A stretch of 54,072 nt of DNA from a bacterium (GCA_018401295.1 JAGYLJ010000004.1:1-54072), one strand, 5' to 3'; shown: positions 30,128-52,665, counted from the first letter of the stretch. Made by a program: numbers and translations. The notes: generated by a model from the letters alone, not told the origin.

Positions 30128-30478
30128 AATTAGTAGTTTGTTTAATGAATAAAAAGCACGAGAGACTAACTCGTGCTGTGAGAAGACTAATATCGACCTT
30201 GTCTTCATTAACTTAGTTTTAATTGTTTTGGATGTCGGGGGGGGAGTTGTTTGATTTAACATCCACCCATCAGAAAGAGATGTTAAGGTAACGGTATTAT
30301 CTGTGTCCGCGACTACTTTTTTGAAAAAGTTGGGGTTTTGAAAGAGAGGGACCTAAAAATTTTTCTCAAAAATTTTGAGGAAAATGGGCAGGTTGCGAGA
30401 TTAGATTAAACGGGATATTATTAAGATACAACTAAATATGACCTAACCCTTTTGAACTTCAAAAGGTATGGTTGAAAA

Positions 30479-30580
30479 ACACAAGCGAGATAAAAAACCT
30501 ATCATTAGGGCACTCGCTTGTGTTATACGGGGAAACCTGTATATGAGCTTCGGCTCTCCTAGTGGTAGGCTTTTTGTTTG
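30479..30580 (+). ncRNA. candidate ~100-nt structured small RNA or attenuator
   Basis: four consecutive hairpins. 30479-30523 is an 11-bp stem. 30524-30543 closes on a GAAA loop with a plus-strand-only G.U pair. 30545-30556 is GAGC-UUCG-GCUC. 30558-30569 is CCTA-GTGG-TAGG, followed by CTTTTTG. Confidence 0.4.
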
Positions 30581-30628: not shown

Positions 30629-31525
30629 ATGAAAACATATGATATCGAAAATAAAATAAAATCTTCTAAATGGAATGCTTTTTTGTTAAGACAAAAAGAT
30701 GTTGAGGAATATCTAGAAGACGGTAAATTTTCTCCGAGTGAAGGTTTTTTTTCTAGATTTTCTAAAATAAAAAAAGAGAATGATGCCAGAAGAAATAAAA
30801 GGATGGTTGATTTACTTACACCACGAATTATTGATGACAAAATAGAGTGGGAAGAATATGTAAAACATAATATAGTAAAACTAGACAAGGAAATTACTTC
30901 AATGATTATAGAGCCAATGAAGAATGTATTTAATCGTGAAGCATCTTTTATTTTTAAAGGTATAAAAGAAGATAACAATACAAAACTAAAAAAATTAGTT
31001 AATGAAGGCAAAATAGAATCGGGGGATATTGTGGCAATTTATCCAATTTCGGTTATTCAAAATGGAGTATCAAAAGGAGTGTTGTTTATAACAACAACAG
31101 GAATTTGTTTTGTTTCAATAAACGCAGGTAATAAATCCACAATTGCTCCTTATGCGGTAGCTAATGCTTTTGGTGGTTTAGGGGCTATTGCTATAGGAGT
31201 TTCTGCTATGGCATCAAAATACATTTCTCACTCTATTGAAAACTATAAAATGGATAAGGAGCAAAAAACAATCATTGAACTATCAGATAAATATTCACCG
31301 TGTCTTATTGCTAAATGTTTTGAGGATAGCCAATTTATTCCCTATAAAATGATTAATGCATTTATACATGGAACAAAAACGGAAAAAAATAAATTTGCAT
31401 TTATTTGCATATACCAAAATATTCAAAAGAAAGTTATCTTTGAAGTGGATCAAAATATAATGGATAAGGTTGTTAAAAATTTATCTGGAGATCTGCCCCC
31501 TAAAGCTAAAAAATATAAAAAATAA
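30629..31525 (+). CDS. hypothetical protein
   Basis: 298-aa ORF, Gly/Ala-rich hydrophobic segment AFGGLGAIAIGVSAMA. Confidence 0.55.
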   Translation: MKTYDIENKIKSSKWNAFLLRQKDVEEYLEDGKFSPSEGFFSRFSKIKKENDARRNKRMVDLLTPRIIDDKIEWEEYVKHNIVKLDKEITSMIIEPMKNVFNREASFIFKGIKEDNNTKLKKLVNEGKIESGDIVAIYPISVIQNGVSKGVLFITTTGICFVSINAGNKSTIAPYAVANAFGGLGAIAIGVSAMASKYISHSIENYKMDKEQKTIIELSDKYSPCLIAKCFEDSQFIPYKMINAFIHGTKTEKNKFAFICIYQNIQKKVIFEVDQNIMDKVVKNLSGDLPPKAKKYKK

Positions 31526-34119: not shown

Positions 34120-34142
34120 ATTGTTTTTATATAAAATCCTTA

Positions 34143-34178
34143 AGAGAGTGAGTCGCCAGTGACTCACTCTCTTTTTTA
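34143..34178 (+). terminator. Rho-independent terminator
   Basis: AGAGAGTGAGTC-GCCAGT-GACTCACTCTCT followed by TTTTTT. Confidence 0.75.
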
Positions 34179-34290
34179 TTAGGATAGCTTAAGAAGAATC
34201 TTAAGCTGATTTTTTTATAAAAATAGCAAACGAGATTTTTCTCTAACAAAGGTCGAAAAATATTATTAACAAATAATTAATTTAAAAAAA

Positions 34291-34548
34291 ATGAAAACAA
34301 TTAAAAACAACGACGAGTCAAAGAAAACTATAATTTTACCAGGCTTAAAAAATGATATTGAGGACATTAAGAAAAAAAGTTCTATTTCGGAGGATCTTAT
34401 TATTCTCCATTTTTATTCAGTTGAGAGTTCTCTCATATCAGGAGAGTTAACCTTAGACGACACTTTTATAAGTGGAATCGGTGACTTGCACGCTATCAAA
34501 CAGTATCTATCAGAAATAGCTGGTGAAGAAGTTGTGCTTTTTTGGTAG
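34291..34548 (+). CDS. 85-aa ORF whose C-terminus duplicates the S49 peptidase C-terminus
   Basis: LDDTFISGIGDLHAIKQYLSEIAGEEVVLFW versus LDNGLIDYIGSLYDVKEYLSNLIGEEVVICE of 32353-33195. Confidence 0.45.
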   Translation: MKTIKNNDESKKTIILPGLKNDIEDIKKKSSISEDLIILHFYSVESSLISGELTLDDTFISGIGDLHAIKQYLSEIAGEEVVLFW

Positions 34549-34580
34549 GTATCTCTTATTAGAAATTTAAGTAAAAAAAT

Positions 34581-34772
34581 ATGAAAACACTAAAAGTAAA
34601 AAAAATTTATAAAAAATATTCTCTGAAAGACACTTCTTTGTTCGGTAAAGAATTGAAAAAAGGAGATACGATGTTCGAAGTTATAAAGTATTTTGAAAAA
34701 CACAATCAAAGAAGAAATAAAGCTACTGACGACATCTTAAGGGCAATAGCAACAAAAATGGGAGCATTATAA
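34581..34772 (+). CDS. 63-aa basic hypothetical protein
   Basis: track ORF, no motif. Confidence 0.35.
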   Translation: MKTLKVKKIYKKYSLKDTSLFGKELKKGDTMFEVIKYFEKHNQRRNKATDDILRAIATKMGAL

Positions 34773-34842
34773 TTAAAAAAATCAGTGATTCTGTAAAAAA
34801 CAATGAGAAGAAGAAAGGATCACTAAAACTAATTCAAAAAAA

Positions 34843-35091
34843 ATGAAATCAATTAAAGCTCGTTACGAGCAGGTTAGGAGAAAACTTTCAGAATCTTACT
34901 CAACTTATATTTGTTTTTCTAGGACGATAGAAGGACAAAAATTTAGTTATGAATCTATAAGTAAAAACTTTAGTTTTTTGGTCGACAAAGATGATTACGC
35001 TAAAAATGAAAGAAACCAGATTTTAAGACACTTGCATTGTCTTTCAAATACCCTTGAGGAGCACGAGTTAGGGCAAAAAAATCGTTTATAA
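34843..35091 (+). CDS. 82-aa hypothetical protein
   Basis: track ORF, no motif. Confidence 0.35.
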   Translation: MKSIKARYEQVRRKLSESYSTYICFSRTIEGQKFSYESISKNFSFLVDKDDYAKNERNQILRHLHCLSNTLEEHELGQKNRL

Positions 35092-35246
35092 GAGCCTAAA
35101 ACACTGAAGGTCATAGATTGTGTTATGTCACTAGAAAGCACCATTAAAAATAGAAAAAATGCTGTAAAAACTGGTTTTGACATAAACCACTTGAATAAGG
35201 TTTTGATTTGAACAGATTATTAGAACTAAATTAAAAATAATTTATT

Positions 35247-35514
35247 ATGGAAGAAAAAATAAAAACACCGGAGGAGTATTTAAAACTCTTTCCTAATACG
35301 CGGCTTCGTTACCTTCATGATGTTAATAAAACAGTCATACAAGGTAAGTGACAAACTTGACATGTCGTGGAATGAAAAAGGATATGGGGTTTTCTTTACT
35401 GTTAATGGATTTCCACCTACAGGTAAAACAGACCAAGCCCATCTTTTATCTTTGAACGGTAATTATGTTGATTTTGATACAGATGATGCTTTGGAGATTT
35501 TAGAATGTTTGTAG
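35247..35514 (+). pseudogene. frameshifted, truncated primase-polymerase (AEP/prim-pol) gene remnant
   Basis: MEEKIKTPEEYLKLFP... (35247-35351), then a +1 frame gives KGYGVFFTVNGF...KTDQAHLLSLNGNYVDFD (the GxxFTxNxF ... hhhhDxD motif I region). Stop after ~65 aa. Confidence 0.5.
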
Positions 35515-36432
35515 AGTTATTTTATAAACAAAAAAGGGACTGTGTTATAATGGAAAAGTTAGTTAATTTGACTAACCAGGATGAAGAGTTATGTGAGCAT
35601 CTAGAAAACCTTTTCAAGATGTTCTCATAACTCGGGAACATCCTGAAAGGGTTTTTTATTTAAATAGTAACTTGCTTTCAAAAAAGTTTAAAACATTTAA
35701 ATTTACCCATTGAAAATTGAAAAATGTTTGAACCTCTGGACTCTTATCTAAAAGCCTTCGGGCCCAGTTCAAACTACATACAAAGAACCCTTTGCTGGAA
35801 GGTTGAGGTAATTCTTTAACAATTAGCGGTAATAAGAGAGTCCGTAGTGGCAAAGATACGGCAAGATTCGGACTTAAATCTTTAGACAATATAGCGAAGC
35901 ATTAAACAGGATCTTCTAATGTAATTTTTCTCAAACTATATTGAATGGGTTACAAATTGTAACCAAGTCACCAAGATTGATGTTTTTACATCACATCCTT
36001 CGTCGCCGAGAAAACTTAGACAGCGAAAAGGAAGAGGAACTATGATCCTCCTCAATAAAACACTGGAAATTTACTAGTCAATAGGTTGTACTAACAAAAT
36101 TGACCAAAAACACTGCTAATTGGACAAACCCGAAAAAAGGGAGTCATTTTTAAATTGTTTTATTTAAACCAATTTAATTTAGACCAATTTATCTTTTTTA
36201 GATGATTTGGTCTAAAAAAAGAATGGCCCTCCGGGCTTGTCCGTTCAAAGACTACTTAGAACTTAACAAGTAGCAAGTAAATGATTGATACAATGTTATA
36301 TTTTTGTAGTTTCTTGTTCGCAACTATCAAATGTATGTTTATTGTTAGTTGTTAATTTGAAATAATAAATAAGTTTTATATTAATGCATTATACATAATG
36401 TTTGGGCATATCTATTGGTTTATGGTCATTTA

Positions 36433-36492
36433 TACTAGTATAAATACTAGTATTGATACTAGTATAAATAGTAGTATCAATACTACTAAGAA
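36433..36492. repeat. five 12-bp-periodic boxes with palindromic core TACTAGTA (iteron/operator array)
   Basis: TACTAGTAT at 36433, 36445 and 36457, TAGTAGTAT at 36469, TACTACTAA at 36481. Exact 12-bp spacing. Confidence 0.85.
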
Positions 36493-36724
36493 TAAAGAAT
36501 GAAGGAAGGTAGAATTCTCAAATGCCATAGCCAAATTCCAGCAATAGAGATTATTAAATAATTTAAAAAGGCAGTTGTTCTAATTTCAGAATGACTGCCT
36601 TTTTTTATGGATAGAGGTATTTTTTTATTTAAATAGTTATCCCACAGACGAAAATTGGGACTGGCGTATACTGTAGTAAACAATATGATATGAAATTCCT
36701 TATTATTAATTTAAGAAAACGAAC

Positions 36725-36934
36725 ATGTCAGAAAATAAAAAGACTGTGGTTTCGTTTAAGGATAAAGATAAAGTTAAAGATGAGCATAAGTTTAGAGATA
36801 CGGTTATGTTAAGAGTTAGTCGTAGTTTAAGGGATGAATTAAAAAAAGAATCGGAAAGAACTTTTATAACTATGTCGCAATTAGGAGACTGGGCATTAAA
36901 AGATTATCTTGATTCAGTTAAATCTTTAGATTAG
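36725..36934 (+). CDS. ribbon-helix-helix (CopG/Arc-like) DNA-binding protein
   Basis: VMLRVSRSLRDELKKESERTFITMSQLGDWALKDYL = beta-strand plus two helices, the RHH pattern. Confidence 0.55.
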   Translation: MSENKKTVVSFKDKDKVKDEHKFRDTVMLRVSRSLRDELKKESERTFITMSQLGDWALKDYLDSVKSLD

Positions 36935-37098
36935 TAGGTTGTGGAGTTTTGTAAACAAAATTTCTCTACAAAGCTTCATTTAAGAAGGATTTTTCTTAAA
37001 TGATATCTTGTCTACCTTTGATCTATTTCGGGCATAAAAACCTGATTTTGGCTCTCCGGGAGGGATAAGATACTTTTTTAGGAAAAATAAAAACAGAA

Positions 37099-37187
37099 TT
37101 ATATGAAGCGAGCATATAATTTCATCATTCGGATTATATAAAAACATATTATTACTTAATCGTTTTTATAAATCCTCACTCGAAATT
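37099..37187 (+). repeat. ~90-bp conserved upstream region, copy A (copy B at 48335-48424)
   Basis: TTATATGAAGCGAGCATATAATT...TTCGGATTATATAAAAACAT..TTATTACTTAATCGTTTTTATAAATCCTCACTCGAAATT-ATG. Roughly 85-90 percent identical by eye to copy B. Confidence 0.85.
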
Positions 37188-37403
37188 ATGAACAAAATTA
37201 ATGAAAAAGAAGAAAATCCGACTCTTTCCATCAATGTATTTGATACTTTGAAGATACAGGCCAAAATGACTTTTGATACTTGTTTTGTTGATGGCATTCA
37301 GTTTACTTATTGGATGGAAGACGAAGACCAAATTAAAGAACGCATAGACGGTATTTTTGATATTCTTTTTGATGAGATAATTAGAGGTGAAAATAGTAAT
37401 TAA
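37188..37403 (+). CDS. 71-aa acidic hypothetical protein upstream of the recombinase
   Basis: track ORF, possible recombination directionality factor by position only. Confidence 0.4.
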   Translation: MNKINEKEENPTLSINVFDTLKIQAKMTFDTCFVDGIQFTYWMEDEDQIKERIDGIFDILFDEIIRGENSN

Positions 37404-37432
37404 TCAGATAACGGGGTAAAATAAAAATAAAT

Positions 37433-39103
37433 ATGGAAACTAAAATTGAAAGAGAAATAAAGTTTATTGCTACTTATTCGAGGGTGTCTACTTCTGCACA
37501 GGAAGTGCAAGAAACAATTCAAAATCAGATTAACTCTTTAAAAGAATATGCTAAGAAAAATAATTGGGAAATAATTCATGAGTATAAAGATGAGGGTTGG
37601 AGTGGGGATGTTCTTAAACGTCCCGGATTAGATCAATTAAGAATCGATGCTAAAAGAAAAGTTTGGGATGCTGTTCTCATTTATGACCCTGACAGATTAG
37701 CGCGAAGATATTCTTATCAAGAGTTAGTGATGGATGAATTAAAAGAAGCGGGAGTGCAAGTGCTTTTTGTTACTGTCGGAACTCCTCAAAATAGTGAGGA
37801 TAAAATTCTTTATGGAGTGAGGGGGCTGTTTGCTGAATATGAAAGAACTAAGATTGCGGAGAGGTTTAGATTAGGGAAGGTCAGTCGAGTAAAGAACGGA
37901 CATATTTTAACCACAGAGGCTCCTTATGGTTATACCTATATTCTCAATCAAGGAAAAAAAGGAGATGCTAATTATATACCAGGCCATCTAGAGATTAATG
38001 AAGATGAAGCTAAGGTAGTGAGAGAAATATTTTCTTGGGTAGCAGATAAAGGGCTGACTGTTCGAGGTGTGGTGAAAAAATTGCAGAAATTAGGCATTCA
38101 GCCAAGAAAAAGTAAGCGAGGAGTGTGGAGCACCAGCTCTCTCAGCACAATGTTACGAAGAGAAACATATATCGGGACGGCTTATTGGAGGAGATCAGAG
38201 GCAATAATACCTGCACATCCTTTAAAGGATGAGAAGTATAAGAAAGTGAAAAAAACTAGTAGACGCTTGAGATCTAAAGAAGAATGGGTCCCGATAACAG
38301 GTATTCCCAAAATTATTGATGAGGATTTATTTAACAGAGCGGGGGAAAGATTAAAAAGTAATTTTGCTACTTTAGGGAGGAATCGGAAATATGAGTATTT
38401 GCTCTCAGGGAAAGTGCGTTGTGGTTGTGGTTGTACAAGAACCGGGAGCGCTACCCAAAAAGGTAAGCATTTGTATTATTGCTGTTCTAATAGGGTCCAT
38501 TCTTTTCCTTTACCTCCCACTTGTTCAGATAGGGCTGTCAATGCCAAAATAACAGATAGAGAATTATGGCACAGGGCTAAATTATTATTGACTTCACCAG
38601 ATTTAATCTTGCGACAAGTTGAGATATGGAATGCAAAATGTAAAAATATTAAATCCGGTGCTGGGTTGCTTGATATAAAGGACCTTCAGAACAAGATAGA
38701 TAAATTAAAAGCAGAAGAAGGTCGAATTGTGGATTTGTATTCTAAAGAAATGATTTCGTTAGAAATGTTTAAAGAAAAGGTTAAGCCAATTAGAGAGAAA
38801 ATTAAAGGGTATGAGGGACAAATCATTAAAGCTAAATTAGAGAAAAATTCTAAAGAAGATTTGTCGGTGGTGGTTAGTGAGAAAGATATTAAAACTTTTA
38901 CGGAGGGGATAAAATCTAAGTTAAACAACTTGAGTTTTACTGCAAAACAAGATATTGTTAGACGTATTACTAATGAAGTAACTATTAGTCACAATTCATT
39001 ACAGGCTTATGGTTGCTTTAATCTAAAAGAAATTTATGACGCGTTGTGTTCTAAGTATAGGAATTGTGGGGCTACCCAACGTTGGGAAATCGACCTTGTT
39101 TAA
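37433..39103 (+). CDS. large serine recombinase (integrase)
   Basis: resolvase catalytic domain ATYSRVSTSAQ...DAVLIYDPDRLAR, recombinase domain, Cys-rich zinc-ribbon CGCGCTRTG...YYCCSN, C-terminal coiled coil. The last ~22 codons overlap ychF out of frame. Confidence 0.9.
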   Translation: METKIEREIKFIATYSRVSTSAQEVQETIQNQINSLKEYAKKNNWEIIHEYKDEGWSGDVLKRPGLDQLRIDAKRKVWDAVLIYDPDRLARRYSYQELVMDELKEAGVQVLFVTVGTPQNSEDKILYGVRGLFAEYERTKIAERFRLGKVSRVKNGHILTTEAPYGYTYILNQGKKGDANYIPGHLEINEDEAKVVREIFSWVADKGLTVRGVVKKLQKLGIQPRKSKRGVWSTSSLSTMLRRETYIGTAYWRRSEAIIPAHPLKDEKYKKVKKTSRRLRSKEEWVPITGIPKIIDEDLFNRAGERLKSNFATLGRNRKYEYLLSGKVRCGCGCTRTGSATQKGKHLYYCCSNRVHSFPLPPTCSDRAVNAKITDRELWHRAKLLLTSPDLILRQVEIWNAKCKNIKSGAGLLDIKDLQNKIDKLKAEEGRIVDLYSKEMISLEMFKEKVKPIREKIKGYEGQIIKAKLEKNSKEDLSVVVSEKDIKTFTEGIKSKLNNLSFTAKQDIVRRITNEVTISHNSLQAYGCFNLKEIYDALCSKYRNCGATQRWEIDLV

Positions 39104-41293: not shown

Positions 41294-41422
41294 TTTAAAA
41301 TTAGCGTAGAACTTCGTTGATTTCGAAAAAATTATTTTCGTCGTATGCTCGATACACCTCAAATAATTTTTTCTTATCGCCTCGTTCTACATCTAATTTA
41401 AGATTAATTAAGTATAAAAAAA

Positions 41423-41457
41423 GGGTGGCTCGCGTAAGCGAGCCACTCTTTTTTTAT
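41423..41457 (+). terminator. Rho-independent terminator
   Basis: GGGTGGCTCGC-GTAA-GCGAGCCACTC followed by TTTTTTT. Confidence 0.85.
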
Positions 41458-41490
41458 TTCCATTTTTTAGGTATGATATTAGTTAACTTT

Positions 41491-43911
41491 ATGAGAAAAT
41501 ACAATCATAAAAAAATAGAGGAGAAATGGCAGAAAAAGTGGGAAGACGACCATGTTGTTAAGATAGATAAGGATGACACAAAGAAAAAATTTTATATGTT
41601 AGACATGTTTCCTTATCCTTCTGGAGAGGGTTTGCATATGGGACATACTGAATCTTATACTGCCAGTGATGTTTTTACACGTTTTAAGACTATGCAGGGT
41701 TTCAATGTGTTACATCCACAAGGTTTTGATGCTTTTGGATTGCCGGCAGAGAATTATGCGATTAAAACTGGAATTGATCCTAAAACTAGTACAGCCCAGA
41801 ACATTAGTAACTTTATTGTACAGATGAAGTCTTTGGGTTTGAGATATGATTTTGACGAAAAAGTTGTTACCTACGAACCAGAATATTATAAATGGACTCA
41901 GTGGCTGTTTGGAAAGTTTTTTGATAACAATTTGGTCTATAAAAAAACTTCTAAAATAAATTGGTGTGAATCTTGTCAGACTGGAATTGCTAATGAACAA
42001 GTGATTGGGGGAGAATGTGAAAGATGTGGAACTCAAATTGTACAAAAAGAAATTCCAGGTTGGTTTTTTAAGATTACAGATTTTGCCGATGCTTTGATAA
42101 ATGATTTAGATACGGTTGATTGGCCAGAGCATACTAAGAAAAATCAAAGAAACTGGATAGGAAAGAGTGAAGGAGCACTTATTAAATTTTCAATTTCTAA
42201 TTTTCAATTTTCAAAAGAAAAAACAGAAGAAAAACAAATCAAAGTTTTTACTACAAGACCAGATACACTTTTTGGGGCGACTTATATGGTGTTGGCTCCT
42301 GAACATCCGCTCGTGCAAGATTTGGTAATCGGATTACCAAATAAGGTTGAGGTAGAGAAATATATTTTAGATTCTCGAAAAAAGACAGAAATGGATAGAA
42401 TAGAAGGAAAAGAAAAAACAGGTGTAAAGTTGGAAGGAATTTTTGCCATTAATCCAGCTATTGCCCGATCCGAAGGATTTAGGGCCAATTCAGAAGAGAT
42501 TCCTATTTTTATAGCTGACTATGTCTTAAGTGGTTATGGAACTGGGGCGATTATGGCTGTACCAGCTCATGATGAAAGAGATTTTGAGTTTGCGACTAAA
42601 TTTGGGGTAGAAATTAAGGAGGTTATTTCTGGTGGAATTATTAAAGAAAGAGCTTATTCTGGTGATGGAATTTTAGTAAATTCAGGTCAGTTTGATGGGA
42701 TGGATTCAGAAGAAGCTAAAAAGAAAATTACTGAATTTGTGGGTGGGGAATTAACTACAAATTATAGGTTGAGGGATTGGTCAATGTCTCGTCAGAGATA
42801 TTGGGGATGTCCTATTCCGATTGTTTATTCACCAGAAGGTGAAGCTAAATGTATTCCTGAAGAACATTTACCTTGGTTGTTGCCAACTGATGTGGATTTT
42901 GTGCCATCCGGAAAATCACCACTAGAAAAATCCGTAGAATTTAGAGAACGAACGGAAAAGATTTTTGGGGAAGGTTGGACTCCAGAATTTGATACCATGG
43001 ATACTTTTGTAGATTCATCTTGGTATTTTTTGCGTTATCCTGATGTTCATAATGAGAAAGAATTTTGTTCAGAGAAACGTAAAGAATGGTTGCCAGTAGA
43101 TTTGTATATTGGTGGGGCAGAGCATACCTATATGCATCTTTTGTTTTCAAGATTTTTTGTAAAGGCGATGAATAAAATTGGTTTGTTAGATTTTAATGAA
43201 CCTTTTTTGAAATTACGACATCAAGGAATGGTATTGGATGGGGAAGGAAAGAAAATGTCAAAGTCAAAAGGGAATGTGACCAATCCCGACGAAATGGTGG
43301 AAAGGTTTGGCGCGGACTCAACTCGTACTTATATGTTATTTGCTGCGCCGTTAGAAGATGAAGTTATGTGGAACGAAGACAATATTGTCGGAGTGTATAG
43401 ATTTTTAGAAAAAGTTTTTTATCAAGTAGATAAATTAGAAAAAGAAAGTTCTAAAGAAGTTCAAAATTCTTTGCATAAAACTATTAGGAAAGTTGGGAAT
43501 GATATTGATGAATTGAAATACAATACTGCTGTTTCAGAGATGATGAAGTTTATGAACGTGGTAAAAAATTATCAAATTTCTCAAGAAGATTTTGAAAAAT
43601 TTTTGAAAATTTTAGCGCCATTTGCTCCGCACATTGCTGAAGAAATTTGGGAGAGCTTAGGTAATAAATCCTCGATTCATCTTGAAAAGTGGCCAGAATA
43701 TGATGTAAAATTAGCTAAGGATGATACTTATGTTATTGCTGTCCAGGTGAACGGAAAAGTTAGGGCTGAAATTGAGATTGGAGACGGAGCTTCCGAAGAA
43801 GATGTTAAGGAAATGGTTTTTTCTGACCTTCAAATTAAAAAATGGATTGGCGAGCATGAGGTTAAGAAAAGTATTTATATAAAAAATAAGATTTTTAATA
43901 TAGTGGTTTAA
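41491..43911 (+). CDS. leuS: leucyl-tRNA synthetase
   Basis: MRKYNHKKIEEKWQKKWE start, HIGH-type LHMGHTESY, KMSKS (GKKMSKSKGN), CP1 editing domain. The track ORF start 41317 reads through the upstream terminator and is rejected. Confidence 0.95.
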   Translation: MRKYNHKKIEEKWQKKWEDDHVVKIDKDDTKKKFYMLDMFPYPSGEGLHMGHTESYTASDVFTRFKTMQGFNVLHPQGFDAFGLPAENYAIKTGIDPKTSTAQNISNFIVQMKSLGLRYDFDEKVVTYEPEYYKWTQWLFGKFFDNNLVYKKTSKINWCESCQTGIANEQVIGGECERCGTQIVQKEIPGWFFKITDFADALINDLDTVDWPEHTKKNQRNWIGKSEGALIKFSISNFQFSKEKTEEKQIKVFTTRPDTLFGATYMVLAPEHPLVQDLVIGLPNKVEVEKYILDSRKKTEMDRIEGKEKTGVKLEGIFAINPAIARSEGFRANSEEIPIFIADYVLSGYGTGAIMAVPAHDERDFEFATKFGVEIKEVISGGIIKERAYSGDGILVNSGQFDGMDSEEAKKKITEFVGGELTTNYRLRDWSMSRQRYWGCPIPIVYSPEGEAKCIPEEHLPWLLPTDVDFVPSGKSPLEKSVEFRERTEKIFGEGWTPEFDTMDTFVDSSWYFLRYPDVHNEKEFCSEKRKEWLPVDLYIGGAEHTYMHLLFSRFFVKAMNKIGLLDFNEPFLKLRHQGMVLDGEGKKMSKSKGNVTNPDEMVERFGADSTRTYMLFAAPLEDEVMWNEDNIVGVYRFLEKVFYQVDKLEKESSKEVQNSLHKTIRKVGNDIDELKYNTAVSEMMKFMNVVKNYQISQEDFEKFLKILAPFAPHIAEEIWESLGNKSSIHLEKWPEYDVKLAKDDTYVIAVQVNGKVRAEIEIGDGASEEDVKEMVFSDLQIKKWIGEHEVKKSIYIKNKIFNIVV

Positions 43912-45378: not shown

Positions 45379-46119
45379 ATGATTTTAAAATTAAAACAAT
45401 TAGGGTTATCTGATAAAGAAGCTAAAGTTTATTTGGCAGCTTTAGAATTGGGGGAAGCGACTGTGCAAGAAATTGCCAAACAGGCGAGCGTTAATCGTCC
45501 TACTACCTATGTTCAGATAGAGAGATTGATTAAATTGGGATTAATGAGCTCGGTGGAAAAAAAAGGGAAGATACATTTTATTGCAGAAGATCCGGTTCAA
45601 TTGTCAAAATTGTTGGATGAACAAAAGAGAGAAATAGAAGAAAAAGTGAAGTTTTTTCAAAGAATATTACCAGAAATAAAGAATGTTTGTAATTTAGATG
45701 GAAAGAAATCAAGAGTGAGGTTTTTTGAAGGGTTAGAGGGTTTGAGATCAATAAAAGATGAAATATTAAAAACAAAAGATAAAGAAATTAAAGCTTTTTT
45801 TTCTGTGGATGACTTTAATAATATTTTCTCTGAAGAAGAAAGGAGTAAATATCTTAATAGAAGATTAAAAAAAGGAATAAAAGTAAAAGGACTTTATACG
45901 AGATCTGAAGGTCCTTTTGAGAAAATTACGAAGGGGGATGATGTGAGAATGATTCCGAAGAAGGATTTCCCGATTTCTTCTGATGTCACTATTTTTAGTG
46001 ATAGGGTAGCTATTTCGGCATTGAAGGACGAAATAGTGGGAGTTATTATAGAAAATAAAGAAATTGCAAATGTTTTCCGATCTATTTTTAATCTTGTTTG
46101 GGAAAATACAAAAAAATAA
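45379..46119 (+). CDS. TrmB-family transcriptional regulator
   Basis: LGLSDKEAKVYLAALELGEATVQEIAKQASVNRPTTYVQIERLIKLGLM winged-HTH typical of TrmB. Confidence 0.8.
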   Translation: MILKLKQLGLSDKEAKVYLAALELGEATVQEIAKQASVNRPTTYVQIERLIKLGLMSSVEKKGKIHFIAEDPVQLSKLLDEQKREIEEKVKFFQRILPEIKNVCNLDGKKSRVRFFEGLEGLRSIKDEILKTKDKEIKAFFSVDDFNNIFSEEERSKYLNRRLKKGIKVKGLYTRSEGPFEKITKGDDVRMIPKKDFPISSDVTIFSDRVAISALKDEIVGVIIENKEIANVFRSIFNLVWENTKK

Positions 46120-46153: not shown

Positions 46154-46183
46154 TTGACATAAATAATTATCTAAAAATAATAT
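46154..46183 (+). promoter_or_regulatory. promoter P1 of the G+C-rich islet
   Basis: TTGACA (46154-46159), 18 nt, TAATAT (46178-46183). The surrounding 27-nt box TGTCAAAACTTATTGACATAAATAATT is repeated at 46218. Confidence 0.5.
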
Positions 46184-46229
46184 ATTTAAACATCCAAATA
46201 GGGTGTTTTATTTAAAATGTCAAAATGTA

Positions 46230-46257
46230 TTGACAAATAATTTTGGATGTGTATACT
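46230..46257 (+). promoter_or_regulatory. promoter P2 of the G+C-rich islet
   Basis: TTGACA (46230-46235), 16 nt, TATACT (46252-46257). Confidence 0.5.
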
Positions 46258-46261
46258 ATGG

Positions 46262-46620
46262 GCAGTTCTTTGAAGAAGGTTCGGGGTCTTGAGAAGGGTC
46301 TCTTATCGCTCCTTCCTAATTAAGGGGGGTAAGGCTTTCCATGGTGGAAAGCAAGGAGCTGAACTAAGTTACAGCCTAAGTTAAGAGGCGTGCATGTAGC
46401 TTGATTCAGTAATCTAAAGTGGAAATTGCACTTTCCGTATTCTCGAAAAAGCCATCTATTCGGTGGATAGCTTTTAATAACAAAGCCGAAGGTGTGACGA
46501 GCCTCATGACGTCAAGGTCACTGCGACAGCCTAGGGATAAAGGCCGTCGTGTAAAACCAGTGGCCTCCCTTTCAGAGATTATTTAACTAAGTAGTTTCTG
46601 AAAGGGAAGTTGGTTCCCTA
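46262..46620 (+). ncRNA. ~360-nt ORF-free, G+C-rich structured leader or unclassified ncRNA
   Basis: starts just after P2, with no ORF of 60 aa or more on either strand despite higher G+C. Many local hairpins, e.g. GCTTTCC-ATGGT-GGAAAGC (46334-46352) and CCCTTTCAGA...TCTGAAAGGG (46567-46606). Confidence 0.35.
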
Positions 46621-46663
46621 AAGTTCTTTTTTAAAAAATCTTTAGAAGAAAGGAGGTGAGAAA

Positions 46664-46843
46664 ATGGGAGATGTAAAGGTCAAGACTTTTCATGTCGGAT
46701 TCGTTTGTGAGACGGCGTCCTCTTCGTTGAAGGTGCTGGATCGTCAGACGGAGGAGATTGAAGGGACGATTCTTCAGATTGAGGATACATATTGTCTGGA
46801 GAAAGACATCCTCGTCAGGGCTGTTGTGTATAAGCCTTGGTAG
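46664..46843 (+). CDS. 59-aa hypothetical protein (not in ORF track)
   Basis: AAAGGAGGTGA SD 5 nt before the ATG. MGDVKVKTFHVGFVCETASSSLKVLDRQTEEIEGTILQIEDTYCLEKDILVRAVVYKPW. Confidence 0.55.
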   Translation: MGDVKVKTFHVGFVCETASSSLKVLDRQTEEIEGTILQIEDTYCLEKDILVRAVVYKPW

Positions 46844-47101
46844 AGATGTTCGGTATAGTCGGTGCCTGCTGTGTCCGACGATAAATCTGCTGAAAACGCG
46901 GACTTCCATTCTGGAAGAAAACAGGCTAGAGGTGGTGAGACATTAGACCAGGCAAACCCACCCATAAGGATGAATCAATCCTTTCTTACCTAAGAGGAAG
47001 TCAAAAAAGATTTCCTCTCCCGTCAGAGTTCATAAAATATTTGTGAATTGTGACGGGAGAAGTTTGAAAATAAAATTTAATAAAGAAAGGAGGTGATTTC
47101 T

Positions 47102-47494
47102 ATGAAAGTCGAATGGAGTCGTTACTTTAGGGGCGACAGAAAAGGTCAGATTTTCGGAGCAAAGATTTGGGGAGATAACAGAGAATACCCCATTGCAGTA
47201 CTTTACTTCGGGAACGGGGCGACGGACAGCCACAGCTTCATTAAGGTAGAAGCTGTGCGAGCTCTGGGGCTTATAAGAAGACCGCAACGTACATGCTACA
47301 CTTGTACGGAGCCAGGTTCACATAATCTGGCGTATGGTCCTGTAGATCAAGTGATTTACAGTAAAGCTCCAGTTTTCGAAGGTGAGAAAGTTTCTTTACC
47401 AACTTTTTCTCTCTCAGAGATGAGGGATATCATAGAGAAAGAGTTTGGGCTTGAAGCTCCTCCTTTTGAAGCCGCTGACATCGGCCAGGAGTAG
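47102..47494 (+). CDS. 130-aa hypothetical protein
   Basis: AAAGGAGGTGA SD before ATG 47102 (MKVEWSRYF...), no motif recognised. Confidence 0.6.
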   Translation: MKVEWSRYFRGDRKGQIFGAKIWGDNREYPIAVLYFGNGATDSHSFIKVEAVRALGLIRRPQRTCYTCTEPGSHNLAYGPVDQVIYSKAPVFEGEKVSLPTFSLSEMRDIIEKEFGLEAPPFEAADIGQE

Positions 47495-47618
47495 ACCTTC
47501 CTGGAGCTTAGGGTTTGTGGAAGAGCCCTATTTGACAAAATCTTCTTTGGTACCGGAGATAAATATCCGGAAAAACAAAAAAATTTTAGCATAAGGTTCG
47601 GGATCCTTTAAAAAATCC

Positions 47619-47682
47619 TTCTGTTTCAGCCCAAGGCTGACTGATGAGTCTTCCGATTTAATATCGGCAAGACGAAACAGAG
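47619..47682 (+). ncRNA. hammerhead self-cleaving ribozyme, type III topology
   Basis: stem III TTCTGT (47619-24) / ACAGAG (47677-82), site GUU with cleavage predicted after 47625. Stem I TCAGCC-CAA-GGCTGA (47626-40). CUGAUGA (47641-47). Stem II GTCTTCCGAT-TTAAT-ATCGG(C)AAGAC (47648-73). GAAA (47674-77). Confidence 0.85.
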
Positions 47683-47720
47683 TGTTCTTTTAAAAAATAC
47701 AAATTAAATAGTTTTTTTAA

Positions 47721-47779
47721 AAATTCATTTATCATCTGAAGTAGTAGAAAGTTTGCTATTTGAGATGATAAATGAATTT
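47721..47779 (+). repeat. perfect 17-bp inverted repeat (hairpin) downstream of the ribozyme
   Basis: AAATTCATTTATCATCT (47721-37) / AGATGATAAATGAATTT (47763-79), 25-nt loop. Confidence 0.85.
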
Positions 47780-47827
47780 AAAACCTTTTGACCCACCTCA
47801 GGGGTAAAGCTGAGGGAGGAGGAAGTT

Positions 47828-48214
47828 ATGTCTAAGAAAAGGCTGGTGGATCAAGAGGGTTTGAAGTATGCGGTAGAAGGGATCGTTGCCTCTGGTAAAG
47901 TGGTAAACGGTCAACTTTTGGCCCGATTGATCGGGGTTAACAAATCAACCATCTGTCGGAATTTGAGGCAGATCGGGATTATCGTCCCGAGGGGTAAGGT
48001 TGGTTGGGTTGAACCCAGCCAAGATGATGAACCTCGTCATCACGACGAAATCGCACGCGCCATGCAAGAGGCCATCTCTATGGAGAACCCTTGTAAACCA
48101 CTATCTGACCCAAAGCTTATGGTGGCAATCGATTTCAGGGGCGAGGTTCGCAACTTCACAAAAATTCGCAATAAGTACGGTATCCCTAGTAGCCGTCAGC
48201 GGAAAAGGAGGTAA
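47828..48214 (+). CDS. 128-aa HTH protein with sigma-54 C-terminal DNA-binding-domain-like tail
   Basis: GGGAGGAGG SD. GQLLARLIGVNKSTICRNLRQIG HTH. KPLSDPKLMVAIDFRGEVRNFTKIRNKYGIPSSRQRKRR parallels the RpoN C-terminus (PLSD..i...L...G..iaRRTVaKYRe.lgIpsS..RK). Confidence 0.55.
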   Translation: MSKKRLVDQEGLKYAVEGIVASGKVVNGQLLARLIGVNKSTICRNLRQIGIIVPRGKVGWVEPSQDDEPRHHDEIARAMQEAISMENPCKPLSDPKLMVAIDFRGEVRNFTKIRNKYGIPSSRQRKRR

Positions 48215-48267
48215 AAATACTGGGACAATCGAAGAATTCACAAGGGTGGTTCTTCGAGTAGGTCGCG

Positions 48268-48307
48268 GGGCGGGGAGTGATTAGTTCAATCACCTCCGCC
48301 TTTTTTG
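48268..48307 (+). terminator. Rho-independent terminator closing the G+C-rich islet
   Basis: GGCGGGGAGTGATT-AGTTC-AATCACCTCCGCC followed by TTTTTT. Confidence 0.75.
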
Positions 48308-48334
48308 TTTGTCTAATTTTTTGATATAATTGAT

Positions 48335-48424: not shown

Positions 48425-49267
48425 ATGAAAAAAGATAATTCAATAGTTTTATTTAATCAAAAACGAATTCGTCGTCATTGGGATGATGAAAAAGAGCTGT
48501 GGTATTTTTCGATTATTGATATTGTAGCGGTTCTGACGGAGCAGATGGATTTTCAATTAGCAAGAAATTATTGGAAAGTTCTGAAAATTCGCTTAAAAAA
48601 GGAAGGAAGTGAAGTGGTTACAAAATGTAACCGGTTGAAAATGATGGCTCAAGACGGCAAGATGAGAGAAACCGATGTTGCCGATGTGGAAACTATTCTG
48701 CGGCTCATTCAATCAGTGCCAAGCAAAAAAGCAGAACCAATTAAGCTTTGGTTAGCCAAGGTAGGATACGAAAGAGTGCAGGAAATGAGCGATCCAGAAA
48801 AAGCATTGAACAGGTCACGCGATTATTGGCAGAGAATGGGACGAAGTCAAAAATGGATTCAACAAAGAATGATGGGGCAAGAAATTAGGAATAAACTCAC
48901 GGATTATTGGAAAGATAATAAGGTGAAAGAAAAAGACGAATATGCTATTTTGACCAACATTATTCATCAAGAATGGAGCGATTTGTCAGTTAAAGAACAT
49001 AAGAGTATAAAAAATTTGAAACGGGAAAATTTGCGTGATCATATGACTGATGCGGAATTGGTCTTTACCGCTTTAGCCGAACTTTCCACCCGCCAAATCG
49101 CGGAAACCATGGAAGCTAAAGGGTTGGAAGAAAATAAAATACCGGCGAAAAAAGGTGGACGAATTGCCAAAGACGCAAGAAAAGCACTGGAAGAAAAAAC
49201 AGGCGAGTCGGTTGTAACCAAGACAAATTATTTATCAAATAAAAAATCTGTTAAAAAATTGAAATAA
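48425..49267 (+). CDS. Bro-N domain protein (phage antirepressor / DinD-like)
   Basis: IRRHWDDEKELWYFSIIDIVAVLTEQ N-terminal Bro-N-like segment, basic C-terminus. Confidence 0.55.
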   Translation: MKKDNSIVLFNQKRIRRHWDDEKELWYFSIIDIVAVLTEQMDFQLARNYWKVLKIRLKKEGSEVVTKCNRLKMMAQDGKMRETDVADVETILRLIQSVPSKKAEPIKLWLAKVGYERVQEMSDPEKALNRSRDYWQRMGRSQKWIQQRMMGQEIRNKLTDYWKDNKVKEKDEYAILTNIIHQEWSDLSVKEHKSIKNLKRENLRDHMTDAELVFTALAELSTRQIAETMEAKGLEENKIPAKKGGRIAKDARKALEEKTGESVVTKTNYLSNKKSVKKLK

Positions 49268-50386: not shown

Positions 50387-50709
50387 GGTGAGGGGCCAGT
50401 AGCCCCTCACCCAGAACCTTTATATTATGTTCTTTGTTTATATTTTAAAAAGTAAAAAAGATAACAGTATTTATATAGGTTATACAAGTGATTTGAAAAG
50501 GCGTTTTGAAGAACATAACGGTGGAAAAAATAAGTCTACCAAATTCAAGGTTCCTTTTGAGCTCATTTATTATGAAGCTTACAGATCTGAATCTGATGCC
50601 AAATATAGGGAGTCAAATTTGAAAAGATTTGCTCAGGCATATTCTGCTCTCAAGGGTAGAATTAAAAATAGTTTGGCATCATAAAGGTTCTGGGTGAGGG
50701 GCCAGTAGC
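50387..50709 (+). mobile_element. GIY-YIG gene cassette with 21-bp perfect terminal inverted repeats and a 17-bp direct duplication of the tRNA-Ala 5' junction
   Basis: IR CCCCTCACCCAGAACCTTTAT (50403-50423) / ATAAAGGTTCTGGGTGAGGGG (50681-50701). DR GGTGAGGGGCCAGTAGC at 50387-50403 and 50693-50709. Confidence 0.6.
50427..50684 (+). CDS. GIY-YIG nuclease family protein
   Basis: FFVYILKSKKDNSIYIGYTSDLKRRFEEHN...AKYRESNLK. Confidence 0.85.
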   Translation: MFFVYILKSKKDNSIYIGYTSDLKRRFEEHNGGKNKSTKFKVPFELIYYEAYRSESDAKYRESNLKRFAQAYSALKGRIKNSLAS

Positions 50710-50771
50710 TCACCTGGTAGAGCGCCGCACTTGCACTGCGGAGGTAGCGGGTTCGAGTCCTGTCTGGTCCA
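50699..50771 (+). tRNA. tRNA-Ala (anticodon UGC), no encoded CCA
   Basis: cloverleaf folded by hand: acceptor GGGCCAG/CTGGTCC with G3:U70, D arm GCTC/GAGC, anticodon stem CCGCA/TGCGG with loop CTTGCAC, T arm GCGGG-TTCGAGT-CCTGT (two G.U), discriminator A. Confidence 0.9.
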
Positions 50772-50778
50772 CAAAAAC

Positions 50779-50816
50779 ACAAAAGAACGCGAAAGCGTTC
50801 TTTTGTTTTGTTTTTG
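50779..50816 (+). terminator. Rho-independent terminator after tRNA-Ala
   Basis: ACAAAAGAACGC-GAAA-GCGTTCTTTTGT followed by TTTGTTTTT. Confidence 0.8.
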
Positions 50817-50836
50817 TGGACCAGACAGGACTCGAA
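50817..50836 (-). repeat. perfect 20-bp inverted copy of the tRNA-Ala 3' end
   Basis: TGGACCAGACAGGACTCGAA is the reverse complement of 50752-50771. Confidence 0.9.
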
Positions 50837-52504: not shown

Positions 52505-52665
52505 CATCTGTCAGGACTCGAACGGTGATAGTAAACAGTCCTGTGGACTGTTTACGAGCCGCGACCAGCAGTACTTAGTAGATTTTGAGCGAAGCGAAAA
52601 AATATACTTAGTAACTGCGGGTCGAGTCCTGTGATTTTGTAGGACCAGACAGGAATCGAATATCC
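52505..52665. repeat. cluster of tRNA-Ala T-arm/3'-end-derived fragments in both orientations plus a GAGCGAAGCGAA hairpin
   Basis: CAGGACTCGAAC (52512-23, minus sense). GCGGGTCGAGTCCTGT (52617-32, plus sense, 16 of 17 versus tRNA 50747-63). AGGACCAGACAGGAATCGAA (52641-60, minus sense). Confidence 0.75.

What the first reader, a model, noticed from the sequence alone, without database searches (positions are those of the whole stretch)
47619..47682. Complete type III hammerhead ribozyme between two small ORFs of a G+C-rich islet
All invariant core positions can be read off: CUGAUGA (47641-47647), G10.1/C11.1 closing stem II, and GAAA (47674-47677) with A15.1 paired to U16.1. Stem I is 6 bp with a CAA loop. 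Stem II is 5 + 5 bp with a single C bulge and a UUAAU loop. Stem III is an open 5-6 bp helix. The cleavage triplet is GUU, less common than GUC but allowed (NUH), and predicts scission between 47625 and 47626. It lies on the coding strand between ORF 47102-47494 and ORF 47828-48214, so self-cleavage would sever the polycistronic RNA. Hammerheads in bacteria are mostly prophage-associated, which fits the foreign look of this islet.
Basis: partly seen in the sequence, partly recalled or inferred. Interest (0 to 1): 0.8.

Follow-up and report, generated by a model that had tools for sequence, protein, structure and literature searches.

The report
Type III hammerhead ribozyme, genuine
The 64-base stretch is a real self-cleaving hammerhead ribozyme sitting between two small genes of a bacterial operon; it belongs to a recognisable subfamily found between small orphan genes in environmental bacteria, so it is a sound but fairly ordinary find.

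Summary
Window 47619-47682 (+) holds every invariant hammerhead core position, three helices in type III topology and a GUU cleavage site (scission 47625|47626). Rfam's Hammerhead_3 model finds it (33.4 bits, E=0.002 for the window) but below its gathering score of 48.5. That threshold is uninformative here: 29 clear relatives all score 31-45 bits. A metagenome scan found 52 loci, with 38 distinct type III hammerheads of the same build: 6-bp stem I, NNA triloop with an invariant A, and stem II GUCUU/AAGAC extended by CC..GG with a bulged pyrimidine. Stems I and III covary strongly. Position 17 is C, U or A, never G. A model built without the window scores it at 70.9 bits. Relatives lie on the coding strand just upstream of small orphan genes, often in arrays of 3-6 ribozymes. 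Nearby genes are cellular, and named homologues of the neighbouring TrmB-like regulator come from candidate-phyla-radiation bacteria. I found no prophage. The closest relative genome shares the operon frame but lacks the segment carrying ORF130 and the ribozyme. The most likely role is constitutive cleavage of the operon RNA between the two ORFs. This is a new member of a known kind.

The parts
47619..47624 (+). Stem III, 5' strand (UUCUGU; U47624 = U16.1)
   Evidence: Pairs with 47677-47682. Five of the 7 stem III columns show double changes in 38 relatives.
47625..47626 (+). Cleavage site: U17 (47625) | U1.1 (47626), triplet GUU
   Evidence: Alignment column 8 is C 31, U 5, A 2, G 0 in 38 sequences. 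GUU is listed as an active NUH site and GUG as non-cleavable (PMC3138052).
47626..47640 (+). Stem I hairpin: UCAGCC / CAA / GGCUGA. A47634 is the family-invariant loop A.
   Evidence: All six pairs covary. The third loop base is A in 38/38. After cleavage the hairpin sits at the very 5' end of the 3' product.
47641..47647 (+). Core C3-A9: CUGAUGA
47648..47673 (+). Stem II: GUCUU/AAGAC base, CCGAU/AUCGG extension, loop UUAAU, bulged C47668
   Evidence: CC..GG is present in about 33/38 relatives, and the bulge is C 20, U 15, A 3. The distal pairs covary.
47674..47682 (+). Core G12 A13 A14 A15.1 (GAAA) and stem III 3' strand (ACAGAG from A47677)
47684..47697 (+). Motif GUUCUUUUAAAAAA directly 3' of the ribozyme
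   Evidence: GTTCTTT(T)[AG]AA follows the hammerhead in about 10 relatives. It recurs at window 46266 and 46623. Its function is unknown.
47102..47494 (+). Upstream ORF (130 aa), strong RBS, no homologue
   Evidence: only itself among 5.8 billion proteins; no Pfam or PADLOC hit
47721..47779 (+). AT-rich hairpin with 24-nt arms between ribozyme and next ORF
   Evidence: 92% complementary; -30.7 kcal/mol, z=-10
47828..48214 (+). Downstream ORF (128 aa), Sigma54_DBD-like HTH
   Evidence: Pfam PF04552 E=1.2e-7. One database homologue at 48% identity. An uncalled 34%-identical homologue lies at the same place in relative L257.
46154..46257 (+). Two sigma-70-like promoter matches (11/12 each) heading the islet
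   Evidence: conserved in relative L257
48267..48308 (+). Terminator-like hairpin plus U-tract closing the islet
   Evidence: -21.5 kcal/mol, z=-3.9; 93% conserved in L257. The simple scan did not flag it because the stem is bulged.
45379..46119 (+). TrmB-like regulator (246 aa) immediately upstream of the islet
   Evidence: Pfam PF01978. Full-length homologues lie next to hammerheads in five other locus groups.

Best explanation
Window 47619-47682 encodes a catalytically competent type III hammerhead ribozyme. It is transcribed as part of the small-gene operon, from promoter-like sites at 46154-46257 or 47048-47076 to the terminator at 48267-48308. The RNA folds into three helices around the conserved core. 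The 2'-OH of U47625 then attacks its own 3' phosphate (established hammerhead chemistry: G12 as general base, the 2'-OH of G8 as general acid). This leaves an upstream fragment ending ...CUUCUGUU with a 2',3'-cyclic phosphate. It also leaves a downstream fragment that starts with a 5'-OH at U47626 and carries the stem I hairpin at its very 5' end. The operon RNA is thereby cut between ORF130 and the Sigma54_DBD-like ORF, so the two messages can have separate fates. Shown: the motif, its family membership, covariation, and coding-strand placement just upstream of genes in relatives. Inferred: actual cleavage, co-transcription, and the effect on expression. A 5'-OH end with a terminal hairpin would be expected to protect the downstream mRNA from 5'-end-dependent decay. 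The opposite effect, as for glmS in Bacillus, cannot be excluded.
For: The core and helices are complete. Rfam RF00008 gives a full-length match with E=0.0021 for the window. The hammerhead fold is the MFE in 79-nt and 341-nt contexts. A scan with only the core plus 5 bp of stem II returned 52 metagenome loci. Of these, 45 carry a 5-7-bp stem I hairpin abutting the core, a non-G position 17 and at least 3 stem III pairs. That gives 38 distinct sequences including the window. On that alignment 91.1% of cells pair, against 71.6% in shuffles and 36-44% with slid partners. There are 155 double-change cells against 45 expected, and all six stem I pairs covary. N17 is C31/U5/A2/G0, as the NUH rule demands. 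Model R1, built without the window, scores it at 70.9 bits. Loci that contain the same 22-nt pattern but lack the stems score only 20-28 bits, and the next best window hit scores 14 bits. R1 finds nothing in 1.33 Mb of unrelated loci from bacterial genomes, many of them candidate-phyla-radiation (CPR) bacteria. The family-specific features are all intact in the window: loop A47634, CC/GG and bulged C47668. Relatives lie on the strand of the flanking ORFs, typically 4-120 nt upstream of an RBS and start codon. They also occur in arrays: L233 has 6, L210 has 5, L244 has 5 and L220 has 3. This is the arrangement shown to cleave polycistronic RNAs in vitro for other bacterial hammerheads (PMC3088659).
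Against: There is no experimental cleavage data and no transcript data. The Rfam score is below the gathering threshold. GUU is a less favoured site than GUC. The tertiary contact that natural hammerheads need for fast cleavage at physiological Mg2+ is only guessed at here (loop I A with the CC/GG-bulge region). There is a single copy in the window. The ribozyme is absent at the syntenic site of the closest relative genome, so it is dispensable for the operon as such. The relatives were fished with 22 nt of the window's own sequence, which inflates the R1 E-value. My filter for stems slightly favours pairing in the covariation count.
Confidence: 0.8

Rival explanations
1. It is a passenger or relic. 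The hammerhead arrived with the ORF130 cassette from a mobile, ribozyme-punctuated gene array. It is intact in sequence but contributes nothing that selection sees in this genome.
For: The segment 47064-47781 (ORF130, hammerhead, AT hairpin) has no counterpart in the closest relative, which keeps the flanking joints at 92-95% identity. The window has a single copy, whereas relatives form arrays. The cleavage triplet is the weaker GUU. ORF130 is an orphan.
Against: All invariant core bases, all three helices and all subfamily-specific positions are intact, which decay would erode quickly. GUU occurs in 4 other distinct family members (5 of the 38 sequences including the window), so it is an accepted state. 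Even a passenger would still cleave, so this rival concerns benefit rather than mechanism.
Confidence: 0.12
2. It is a conditional ribozyme. Cleavage is gated by alternative pairing with the flanks, by translation of ORF130, or by a protein such as the neighbouring TrmB-like or HTH proteins. On this view the hammerhead acts as a regulator and not as a constitutive processor.
For: The intergenic region is unusually structured (z=-6.7). A conserved GTTCTTTAAA-like motif abuts the ribozyme. A TrmB-like regulator neighbours hammerheads in six locus groups, counting the window.
Against: The hammerhead fold is already the MFE in the full intergenic context. No aptamer-like conserved extension is seen in the family, and the flanks of relatives are unrelated. 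Six groups of closer TrmB homologues have no hammerhead nearby.
Confidence: 0.05
3. The ribozyme serves excision or circularisation of a unit-length RNA, as in retrozyme-, viroid- or Obelisk-like elements. On this view it does not process mRNA.
For: Relatives occur as tandem arrays that would release gene-length RNAs with ligatable 5'-OH and cyclic-phosphate ends. Perreault et al. raised this possibility.
Against: The window has only one hammerhead, and no other self-cleaving ribozyme match with E<=1 between 46 and 48.3 kb (for 47500-47830 also none at E<=10) or by R1 with filters off, so no unit can be excised. Perreault et al. could not detect circular or spliced products.
Confidence: 0.02
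4. It is a chance match to the hammerhead consensus.
For: The Rfam score is below the gathering threshold. The lenient descriptor occasionally hits shuffled sequence (11 of 1500).
Against: The strict descriptor hits 0 of 1500 shuffles. R1 gives 70.9 bits. The sequence is 88-91% identical over 63-66 nt to hammerheads in unrelated contigs (L237/L249, L254, L204) whose flanks do not match.
Confidence: 0.01

Closest known systems
Rfam RF00008, Hammerhead ribozyme (type III)
   Same: Identical catalytic core, G10.1-C11.1, A15.1-U16.1, open stem III, and closed stems I and II. The alignment to the model is full length.
   Different: Stem II carries 18 nt where the model expects 8, forming a second 5-bp helix after a one-base bulge. 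Stem I is capped by a 3-nt loop. The site is GUU. The window and all 29 relatives tested score below the curated threshold (31-45 vs 48.5 bits), so Rfam annotation at the default threshold would miss this subfamily.
Phage-borne hammerheads with stem-loop II GUCUU-UGAAAAUU-AAGAC (IMG/VR contigs; mostly type I, a few type III such as L026, L051, L053, L060, L065)
   Same: They have the same core and the same 5-bp base of stem II, GUCUU/AAGAC. They are intergenic and on the coding strand. GUU sites also occur among them.
   Different: Their stem II ends in an 8-nt loop, whereas here that loop is replaced by CC..GG, a further helix and a bulged pyrimidine. Most are type I (open stem I). The extended form gave 0 hits in viral contigs, but that collection holds about 80 times fewer records, so the zero says little.
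Gene-flanking hammerheads in bacterial polycistronic RNAs (Clostridium scindens, Azorhizobium caulinodans, Agrobacterium tumefaciens; Perreault et al. 2011, PMC3088659)
   Same: The ribozymes lie between genes of varying identity on the coding strand, and several per operon are seen in the relatives found here. In that study such arrays cleaved about 2-kb native transcripts in vitro.
   Different: Those examples are in prophages near integrases. Here no prophage is evident, the window has a single ribozyme, and the hosts appear to be candidate-phyla-radiation bacteria. I found no paper linking hammerheads with that group.
glmS ribozyme (precedent for what a ribozyme-made 5'-OH end does to a bacterial mRNA; from my own knowledge, Collins et al. 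2007)
   Same: Self-cleavage in a bacterial mRNA leaves a 5'-OH on the coding fragment.
   Different: glmS is metabolite-dependent and its product is degraded by RNase J1. Here no ligand is implied, and the 5' end of the product is buried in a hairpin, so stabilisation is at least as likely.

Membership tests
Hammerhead ribozyme class | Core C3 U4 G5 A6 N7 G8 A9 | tested here: met
   CUGAUGA at 47641-47647
Hammerhead ribozyme class | Core G12 A13 A14 followed by the A15.1-U16.1 pair | tested here: met
   GAAA at 47674-47677; A47677 pairs with U47624. This pair is invariant in 38/38 relatives.
Hammerhead ribozyme class | Position 17 is not G (NUH rule) | tested here: met
   U47625. The family shows C31/U5/A2/G0.
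Hammerhead ribozyme class | Three helices radiating from the core, with no mispair next to the core (1.1-2.1, 10.1-11.1, 15.1-16.1) | tested here: met
   U47626-A47640, G47648-C47673 and A47677-U47624. Stems I and III and distal stem II are supported by compensatory changes.
Hammerhead type III topology | Stem III open; stems I and II closed by loops | tested here: met
Rfam RF00008 as curated | Bit score at or above the gathering score (48.5) | tested here: not met
   33.4 bits. This is an operational cut-off, not a property of the ribozyme, and all 29 relatives tested also fall below it.
Hammerhead ribozyme class | Tertiary contact between stems I and II that allows fast cleavage at physiological Mg2+ | not testable with these tools
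   Candidate elements only: the invariant loop I A (38/38) and the conserved CC/GG plus bulged pyrimidine 5 bp from the core.
Hammerhead ribozyme class | Site-specific self-cleavage giving 2',3'-cyclic phosphate and 5'-OH ends | not testable with these tools
   Needs in vitro transcription or end mapping.
Gene-flanking hammerheads of polycistronic RNAs (Perreault 2011) | Lies on the coding strand between genes of one transcription unit | tested here: inconclusive
   Same strand as both ORFs. The simple scan marks no intrinsic-terminator-like site in the intergenic region; its only match lies inside ORF130. Promoter-like sites lie upstream and a terminator downstream. There is no transcript evidence.
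Gene-flanking hammerheads of polycistronic RNAs (Perreault 2011) | Several ribozymes flanking single genes or short gene blocks | tested here: not met
   One copy in the window (filters off). The feature is met in relatives L233, L210, L244, L220 and L203.
Gene-flanking hammerheads of polycistronic RNAs (Perreault 2011) | Prophage or integrase neighbourhood | tested here: not met
   No phage genes lie within several kb. The neighbours are a TrmB-like gene, orphan ORFs, PDC-S13/Bro-N and Ddl. The nearest recombinase is 8.5 kb away, beyond YchF and LeuRS.

The most novel reading that the evidence does not exclude
The ribozyme may be the visible part of an undescribed expression platform of candidate-phyla-radiation bacteria. 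The platform would be a TrmB-like regulator heading a promoter, followed by a string of exchangeable orphan-gene cassettes. The joints between cassettes (conserved hairpin repeats, UTR pieces, terminator) are kept, while the ORFs are swapped between strains. Self-cleaving hammerheads of a distinct structural flavour (NNA triloop docking on a CC/GG-bulge receptor in a long stem II) would insulate each cassette's message. That would be loosely analogous to an integron array, but organised at the RNA level.
Probability: 0.15. Interest if true: 0.65.

Novelty: new member of a known kind. Interest (0 to 1): 0.35.

Why it matters
Hammerheads are well known in bacteria, so the ribozyme itself changes little. 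Three things are useful. First, this subfamily (38 distinct sequences here) falls systematically below Rfam's gathering score, so routine annotation misses it. A dedicated model would recover it. Second, it extends gene-flanking hammerheads from prophages to what look like chromosomal orphan-gene clusters of candidate-phyla-radiation bacteria, a group for which I found no published hammerhead report in the searched library. Third, the subfamily has an invariant loop I adenine and a conserved CC/GG-plus-bulge element in place of loop II. This suggests a different tertiary contact that could be tested with a few mutants.

Tried and rejected
- Rfam at gathering threshold: no hammerhead, only LOOT RNA and a tRNA.
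- Other self-cleaving ribozyme classes near the site: no match in the whole window with E<=1, and none at 47500-47830 with E<=10.
- Homologues of the flanking ORFs, to look for a syntenic ribozyme. ORF130 has none. ORF128 has one at 48% identity, and there is no hammerhead in the 390 nt available upstream of it.
- LeuRS-anchored search of 185,579 species genomes. The best identity was only 50-52%, to Patescibacteria MAGs. There was no synteny and no hammerhead in 1.33 Mb.
- Phage record BLAST of 45-51 kb: only the tRNA matched.
- Viral-contig scan for the extended stem II form: 0 hits. I do not count this as evidence against a viral origin, because that collection holds about 80 times fewer records than the metagenome collection that gave 52 hits.
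- Testing the TrmB link from the protein side. Contigs of six groups of TrmB homologues (92% to 49% identity) hold no hammerhead. The link is therefore one-directional and may only reflect that both mark variable orphan-gene regions.
- Shared gene families flanking the relatives' ribozymes: none, and none shared with the window except TrmB and a small GIY-YIG protein.
- Alternative genetic code for the window: no gain in ORF coverage that would suggest one.
- Integron attC-like reading of the cassette-junction hairpins: I saw no GTTRRRY/RYYYAAC cores by eye and did not pursue it.
- Direct repeats CTTTAAAAAAT on either side of the ribozyme as a target-site duplication: not seen in relatives, so dropped.

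Full report
**What is at the coordinates**

The sequence at 47619-47682 (+) reads, 5' to 3': UUCUGU U | UCAGCC CAA GGCUGA CUGAUGA GUCUU CCGAU UUAAU AUCGG C AAGAC GAAA CAGAG.
- CUGAUGA at 47641-47647 and GAAA at 47674-47677.
- G10.1-C11.1 as G47648-C47673, and A15.1-U16.1 as A47677-U47624.
- Stem I of 6 bp with a CAA loop.
- Stem II of 5 + 5 bp with the bulged C47668 and a UUAAU loop.
- An open stem III of 6 pairs, one of them U.G.
- A GUU triplet that places scission between 47625 and 47626.

**Is it more than chance?**

- Rfam at its gathering thresholds reports only a LOOT RNA and a tRNA.
- With E-value reporting, RF00008 (Hammerhead_3) aligns over its full length at 33.4 bits. E is 1.3e-5 for the intergenic region and 0.0021 for the whole window on both strands against all families.
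- The bare pattern CTGATGA-N(8-38)-CGAAA occurs twice in the window, against 0.24 expected. Only this copy has the helices.
- A type III descriptor of my own hits the window once. With lenient stems (at least 4/4/4 bp) it hits 11 of 1500 dinucleotide shuffles. With the observed stem lengths it hits 0 of 1500.
- The hammerhead fold is the minimum-energy structure of the 79-nt stretch (z=-4.1). It survives in the fold of the whole 341-nt intergenic region.

**Relatives**

The flanking proteins were no help. ORF130 (47102-47494) has no homologue among 5.8 billion proteins. The Sigma54_DBD-like ORF128 (47828-48214) has one, without a hammerhead in the 390 nt available upstream.

I therefore searched by DNA with the core plus the five base pairs at the foot of stem II.
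- With an 8-nt gap, this pattern is very common in viral contigs (more than 120 loci). Those are mostly type I hammerheads with loop II UGAAAAUU, and a few are type III.
- With a 10-34-nt gap, it gave no viral hit but 52 metagenome loci.

Nothing in the pattern specifies stems I or III. Even so, 45 of the 52 loci carry a stem I hairpin of 5-7 bp abutting the core, a non-G position 17 and at least three stem III pairs. With the window this gives 38 distinct sequences of one build:
- Stem I of 6 bp (occasionally 7).
- A three-base loop NNA whose A is invariant (38/38).
- Stem II with GUCUU/AAGAC, then CC..GG (about 33/38) and a variable distal helix.
- A single bulged pyrimidine on the 3' side (C 20, U 15, A 3).

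The window's copy is 88-91% identical over 63-66 nt to those of L237/L249, L254 and L204, whose flanks are unrelated.

**Covariation**

On the 38-sequence alignment, 91.1% of cells form standard pairs. The figure is 71.6% after shuffling partners and 36-44% when partners are slid by 1-3 columns. There are 155 cells with changes on both sides, against 45 expected (0 of 500 shuffles reach the observed value). Every stem I pair and five of seven stem III pairs show compensatory changes.

Two caveats apply. The five proximal stem II pairs are fixed by the search pattern. My filter also required some pairing, although it removed only seven loci.

Position 17 is C in 31 sequences, U in 5 and A in 2, and never G. 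This is what the catalytic requirement predicts. GUU is thus an accepted natural state in this family, and it also occurs among the phage hammerheads. The literature lists GUU as cleavable and GUG as not (PMC3138052).

**An independent model**

I built covariance model R1 from the 37 relatives without the window.
- It scores the window's element at 70.9 bits. The next best hit in the window, with filters off, scores 14.1 bits.
- The E-value (about 1e-19) is inflated, because 22 nt are shared by construction. Loci that contain the same 22 nt without the type III stems score only 20-28 bits (L208, L213, L219, L234, L242). Some 45 bits therefore come from features that were not selected for.
- R1 finds nothing in 1.33 Mb of LeuRS-neighbourhood loci from 80 genomes, many of them candidate-phyla-radiation (CPR) bacteria.

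**Why Rfam's threshold does not refute**

Across 19 relatives' loci, 23 hammerheads were reported by RF00008 at 31.3-45.1 bits. None reached 48.5. The subfamily as a whole is sub-threshold, so the window's score is typical for it.

**Genomic setting of the window**

- The window is a low-G+C (about 33%) bacterial chromosome with AcrB/HlyD efflux, RelA/SpoT, YchF, LeuRS, a sigma-70-type protein, Ddl and NUDIX genes.
- LeuRS is at best 50-52% identical to proteins of Patescibacteria MAGs.
- Homologues of the neighbouring TrmB-like protein carry source names such as Kerfeldbacteria, Pacebacteria, Tagabacteria, Falkowbacteria and Sungbacteria. The organism is most likely a candidate-phyla-radiation bacterium without a close sequenced relative in the species collection.
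- The islet looks like one transcription unit. It starts with two 11/12 promoter matches at 46154-46257 and a roughly 400-nt structured leader. Three small ORFs with strong Shine-Dalgarno sequences follow (46664-46843, 47102-47494, 47828-48214). A hairpin plus U-tract at 48267-48308 closes it.
- The simple scan marks no terminator-like site in the intergenic region; its only match lies inside ORF130.
- I found no phage genes. The next gene downstream (48425-49267) matches the candidate defence family PDC-S13 at E=1e-120 and has a Bro-N domain.

**Comparison with the nearest relative**

Contigs encoding a 92%-identical TrmB protein (for example L257, GCA_964459145.1) share the following with the window:
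- the TrmB gene (87.5% nt identity);
- the promoters;
- a 45-nt hairpin repeat;
- the 207 nt before that hairpin (95%);
- the 40 nt ahead of the Sigma54_DBD-like ORF (92.5%);
- the terminator (93.5%).

The ORFs between these joints differ. The segment 47064-47781 (ORF130, the hammerhead and the AT-rich hairpin) is replaced by 211 unrelated bases. L257 has no hammerhead and no other Rfam ribozyme there. It does encode an uncalled 34%-identical homologue of ORF128 at the same place. The ribozyme therefore belongs to a strain-specific cassette within a conserved frame.

**Setting of the relatives**

- The hammerheads lie on the strand of the flanking ORFs, usually 4-120 nt upstream of an RBS and start codon.
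- Many loci hold arrays. L233 has six over 4.8 kb, L210 and L244 have five each, and L220 and L203 have three each.
- The arrays mix this flavour with a more classical type III flavour that has loop I UGUGUA and a short stem II.
- The flanked ORFs are almost all without Pfam matches. One is STIV_B116-like. They share no family with each other or with the window.
- The wider neighbourhoods are cellular, with 16S rRNA and tRNA genes, ClpP, SMC, S15, sortase and glycosyltransferases, and one integrase.
- Full-length homologues of the window's TrmB-like protein sit next to the hammerhead operon in L215, L216, L229, L233/L243 and L253. Contigs of six groups of closer TrmB homologues have no hammerhead. 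The link may only mean that both are typical of variable orphan-gene regions in these bacteria.

**How it most likely works**

The chemistry is that of every hammerhead: internal transesterification at U17, giving a 2',3'-cyclic phosphate and a 5'-OH. Because the ribozyme is type III, nearly all of it stays on the downstream product. That product would begin with the stem I hairpin at its first nucleotide. The arrangement matches the gene-flanking hammerheads that Perreault et al. showed to cut 2-kb polycistronic transcripts in vitro (PMC3088659).

I infer constitutive processing that uncouples ORF130 from ORF128. A protected 5' end on the ORF128 message is the likelier outcome. The glmS precedent shows that a 5'-OH end can also trigger decay. 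Cleavage itself, co-transcription and the effect on expression are not shown.

**Verdict**

This is a genuine hammerhead, correctly read by the first stage. It is a new member of a known kind and belongs to a coherent subfamily that default Rfam annotation misses. The prophage remark is not supported, while the 'foreign cassette' impression is. The interest is moderate to low for the ribozyme itself. It is somewhat higher for the subfamily's possible tertiary contact and for the cassette-like orphan-gene operons in which it sits.

Noticed in passing
window 30440-30557 (+): LOOT RNA (Rfam RF03000) at 77.1 bits, well above its gathering score of 46.4. It lies just upstream of ORF 30629-31525.
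   Followed up: no
window 46262-46650 (+): A roughly 400-nt G+C-rich, strongly structured leader (z=-4.5) lies between two near-consensus promoters and the first small ORF. It has no Rfam match. About 300 nt of it (46277-46578) are absent from the closest relative L257, so it behaves like an inserted RNA element.
   Followed up: partly
window 47016-47060, 46566-46607; L257 1569-1613 and 2388-2432; L263 2774-2845: A conserved hairpin repeat of about 45 nt (TCTCCCGTCAGAGTTCATAAAATATTTGTGAATTGTGACGGGAGA; -29.5 kcal/mol) marks the joints between small ORFs. Between strains the joints are conserved at 92-98% while the ORFs differ, giving a cassette-like mosaic.
   Followed up: partly
window 48425-49267 (+): A 280-aa protein with a Bro-N domain matches the PADLOC candidate defence family PDC-S13 over its full length (E=1.3e-120). 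It lies directly after the islet's terminator.
   Followed up: no
window 50699-50836 and 52630-52660; L257 238-330, 3836-4113: tRNA-Ala(TGC) is followed by a terminator-like hairpin and an inverted copy of the tRNA's own 3' end. A further copy lies at 52630-52660. In the relative L257 similar repeats bracket the TrmB gene plus the small-ORF operon, which hints at an integrative element.
   Followed up: partly
window 45379-46119 (+); L215, L216, L229, L233/L243, L253: A 246-aa TrmB-like regulator, from a family with more than 577 members named from candidate-phyla-radiation MAGs, neighbours hammerhead-containing operons in six locus groups counting the window. In many strains it is followed by a long non-coding stretch and strain-variable orphan ORFs (L265-L274).
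   Followed up: partly
window 46266-46275, 46623-46639, 47684-47697; L205, L209, L210, L220, L223, L233, L244, L253: The motif GTTCTTT(T)[AG]AA recurs at three kinds of place: right after hammerheads, near the predicted transcription start, and a few bases ahead of ribosome-binding sites. Its function is unknown.
   Followed up: partly
L233 4289-9100; L210 2421-4864; L244 3084-4724; L220; L203: Arrays of 3-6 type III hammerheads flank single orphan genes. Two structural flavours are mixed in them. Some copies carry core variants (CCGACGA, CCGAUGA, CUGAGGA) that may or may not be active.
   Followed up: partly
window 37433-39103 and 34120-37430: A large serine recombinase (Resolvase + Recombinase + zinc ribbon) lies next to 3.3 kb that holds only ORFs shorter than 100 aa, downstream of an S49 peptidase gene. 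This may be a small integrated element.
   Followed up: no
window 41310-41560 (+): Several weak Rfam hits (L20 leader, ylbH, FopS; all far below threshold) pile up on a hairpin-plus-U-tract just upstream of leuS. This is probably a terminator or a leader or attenuator.
   Followed up: no
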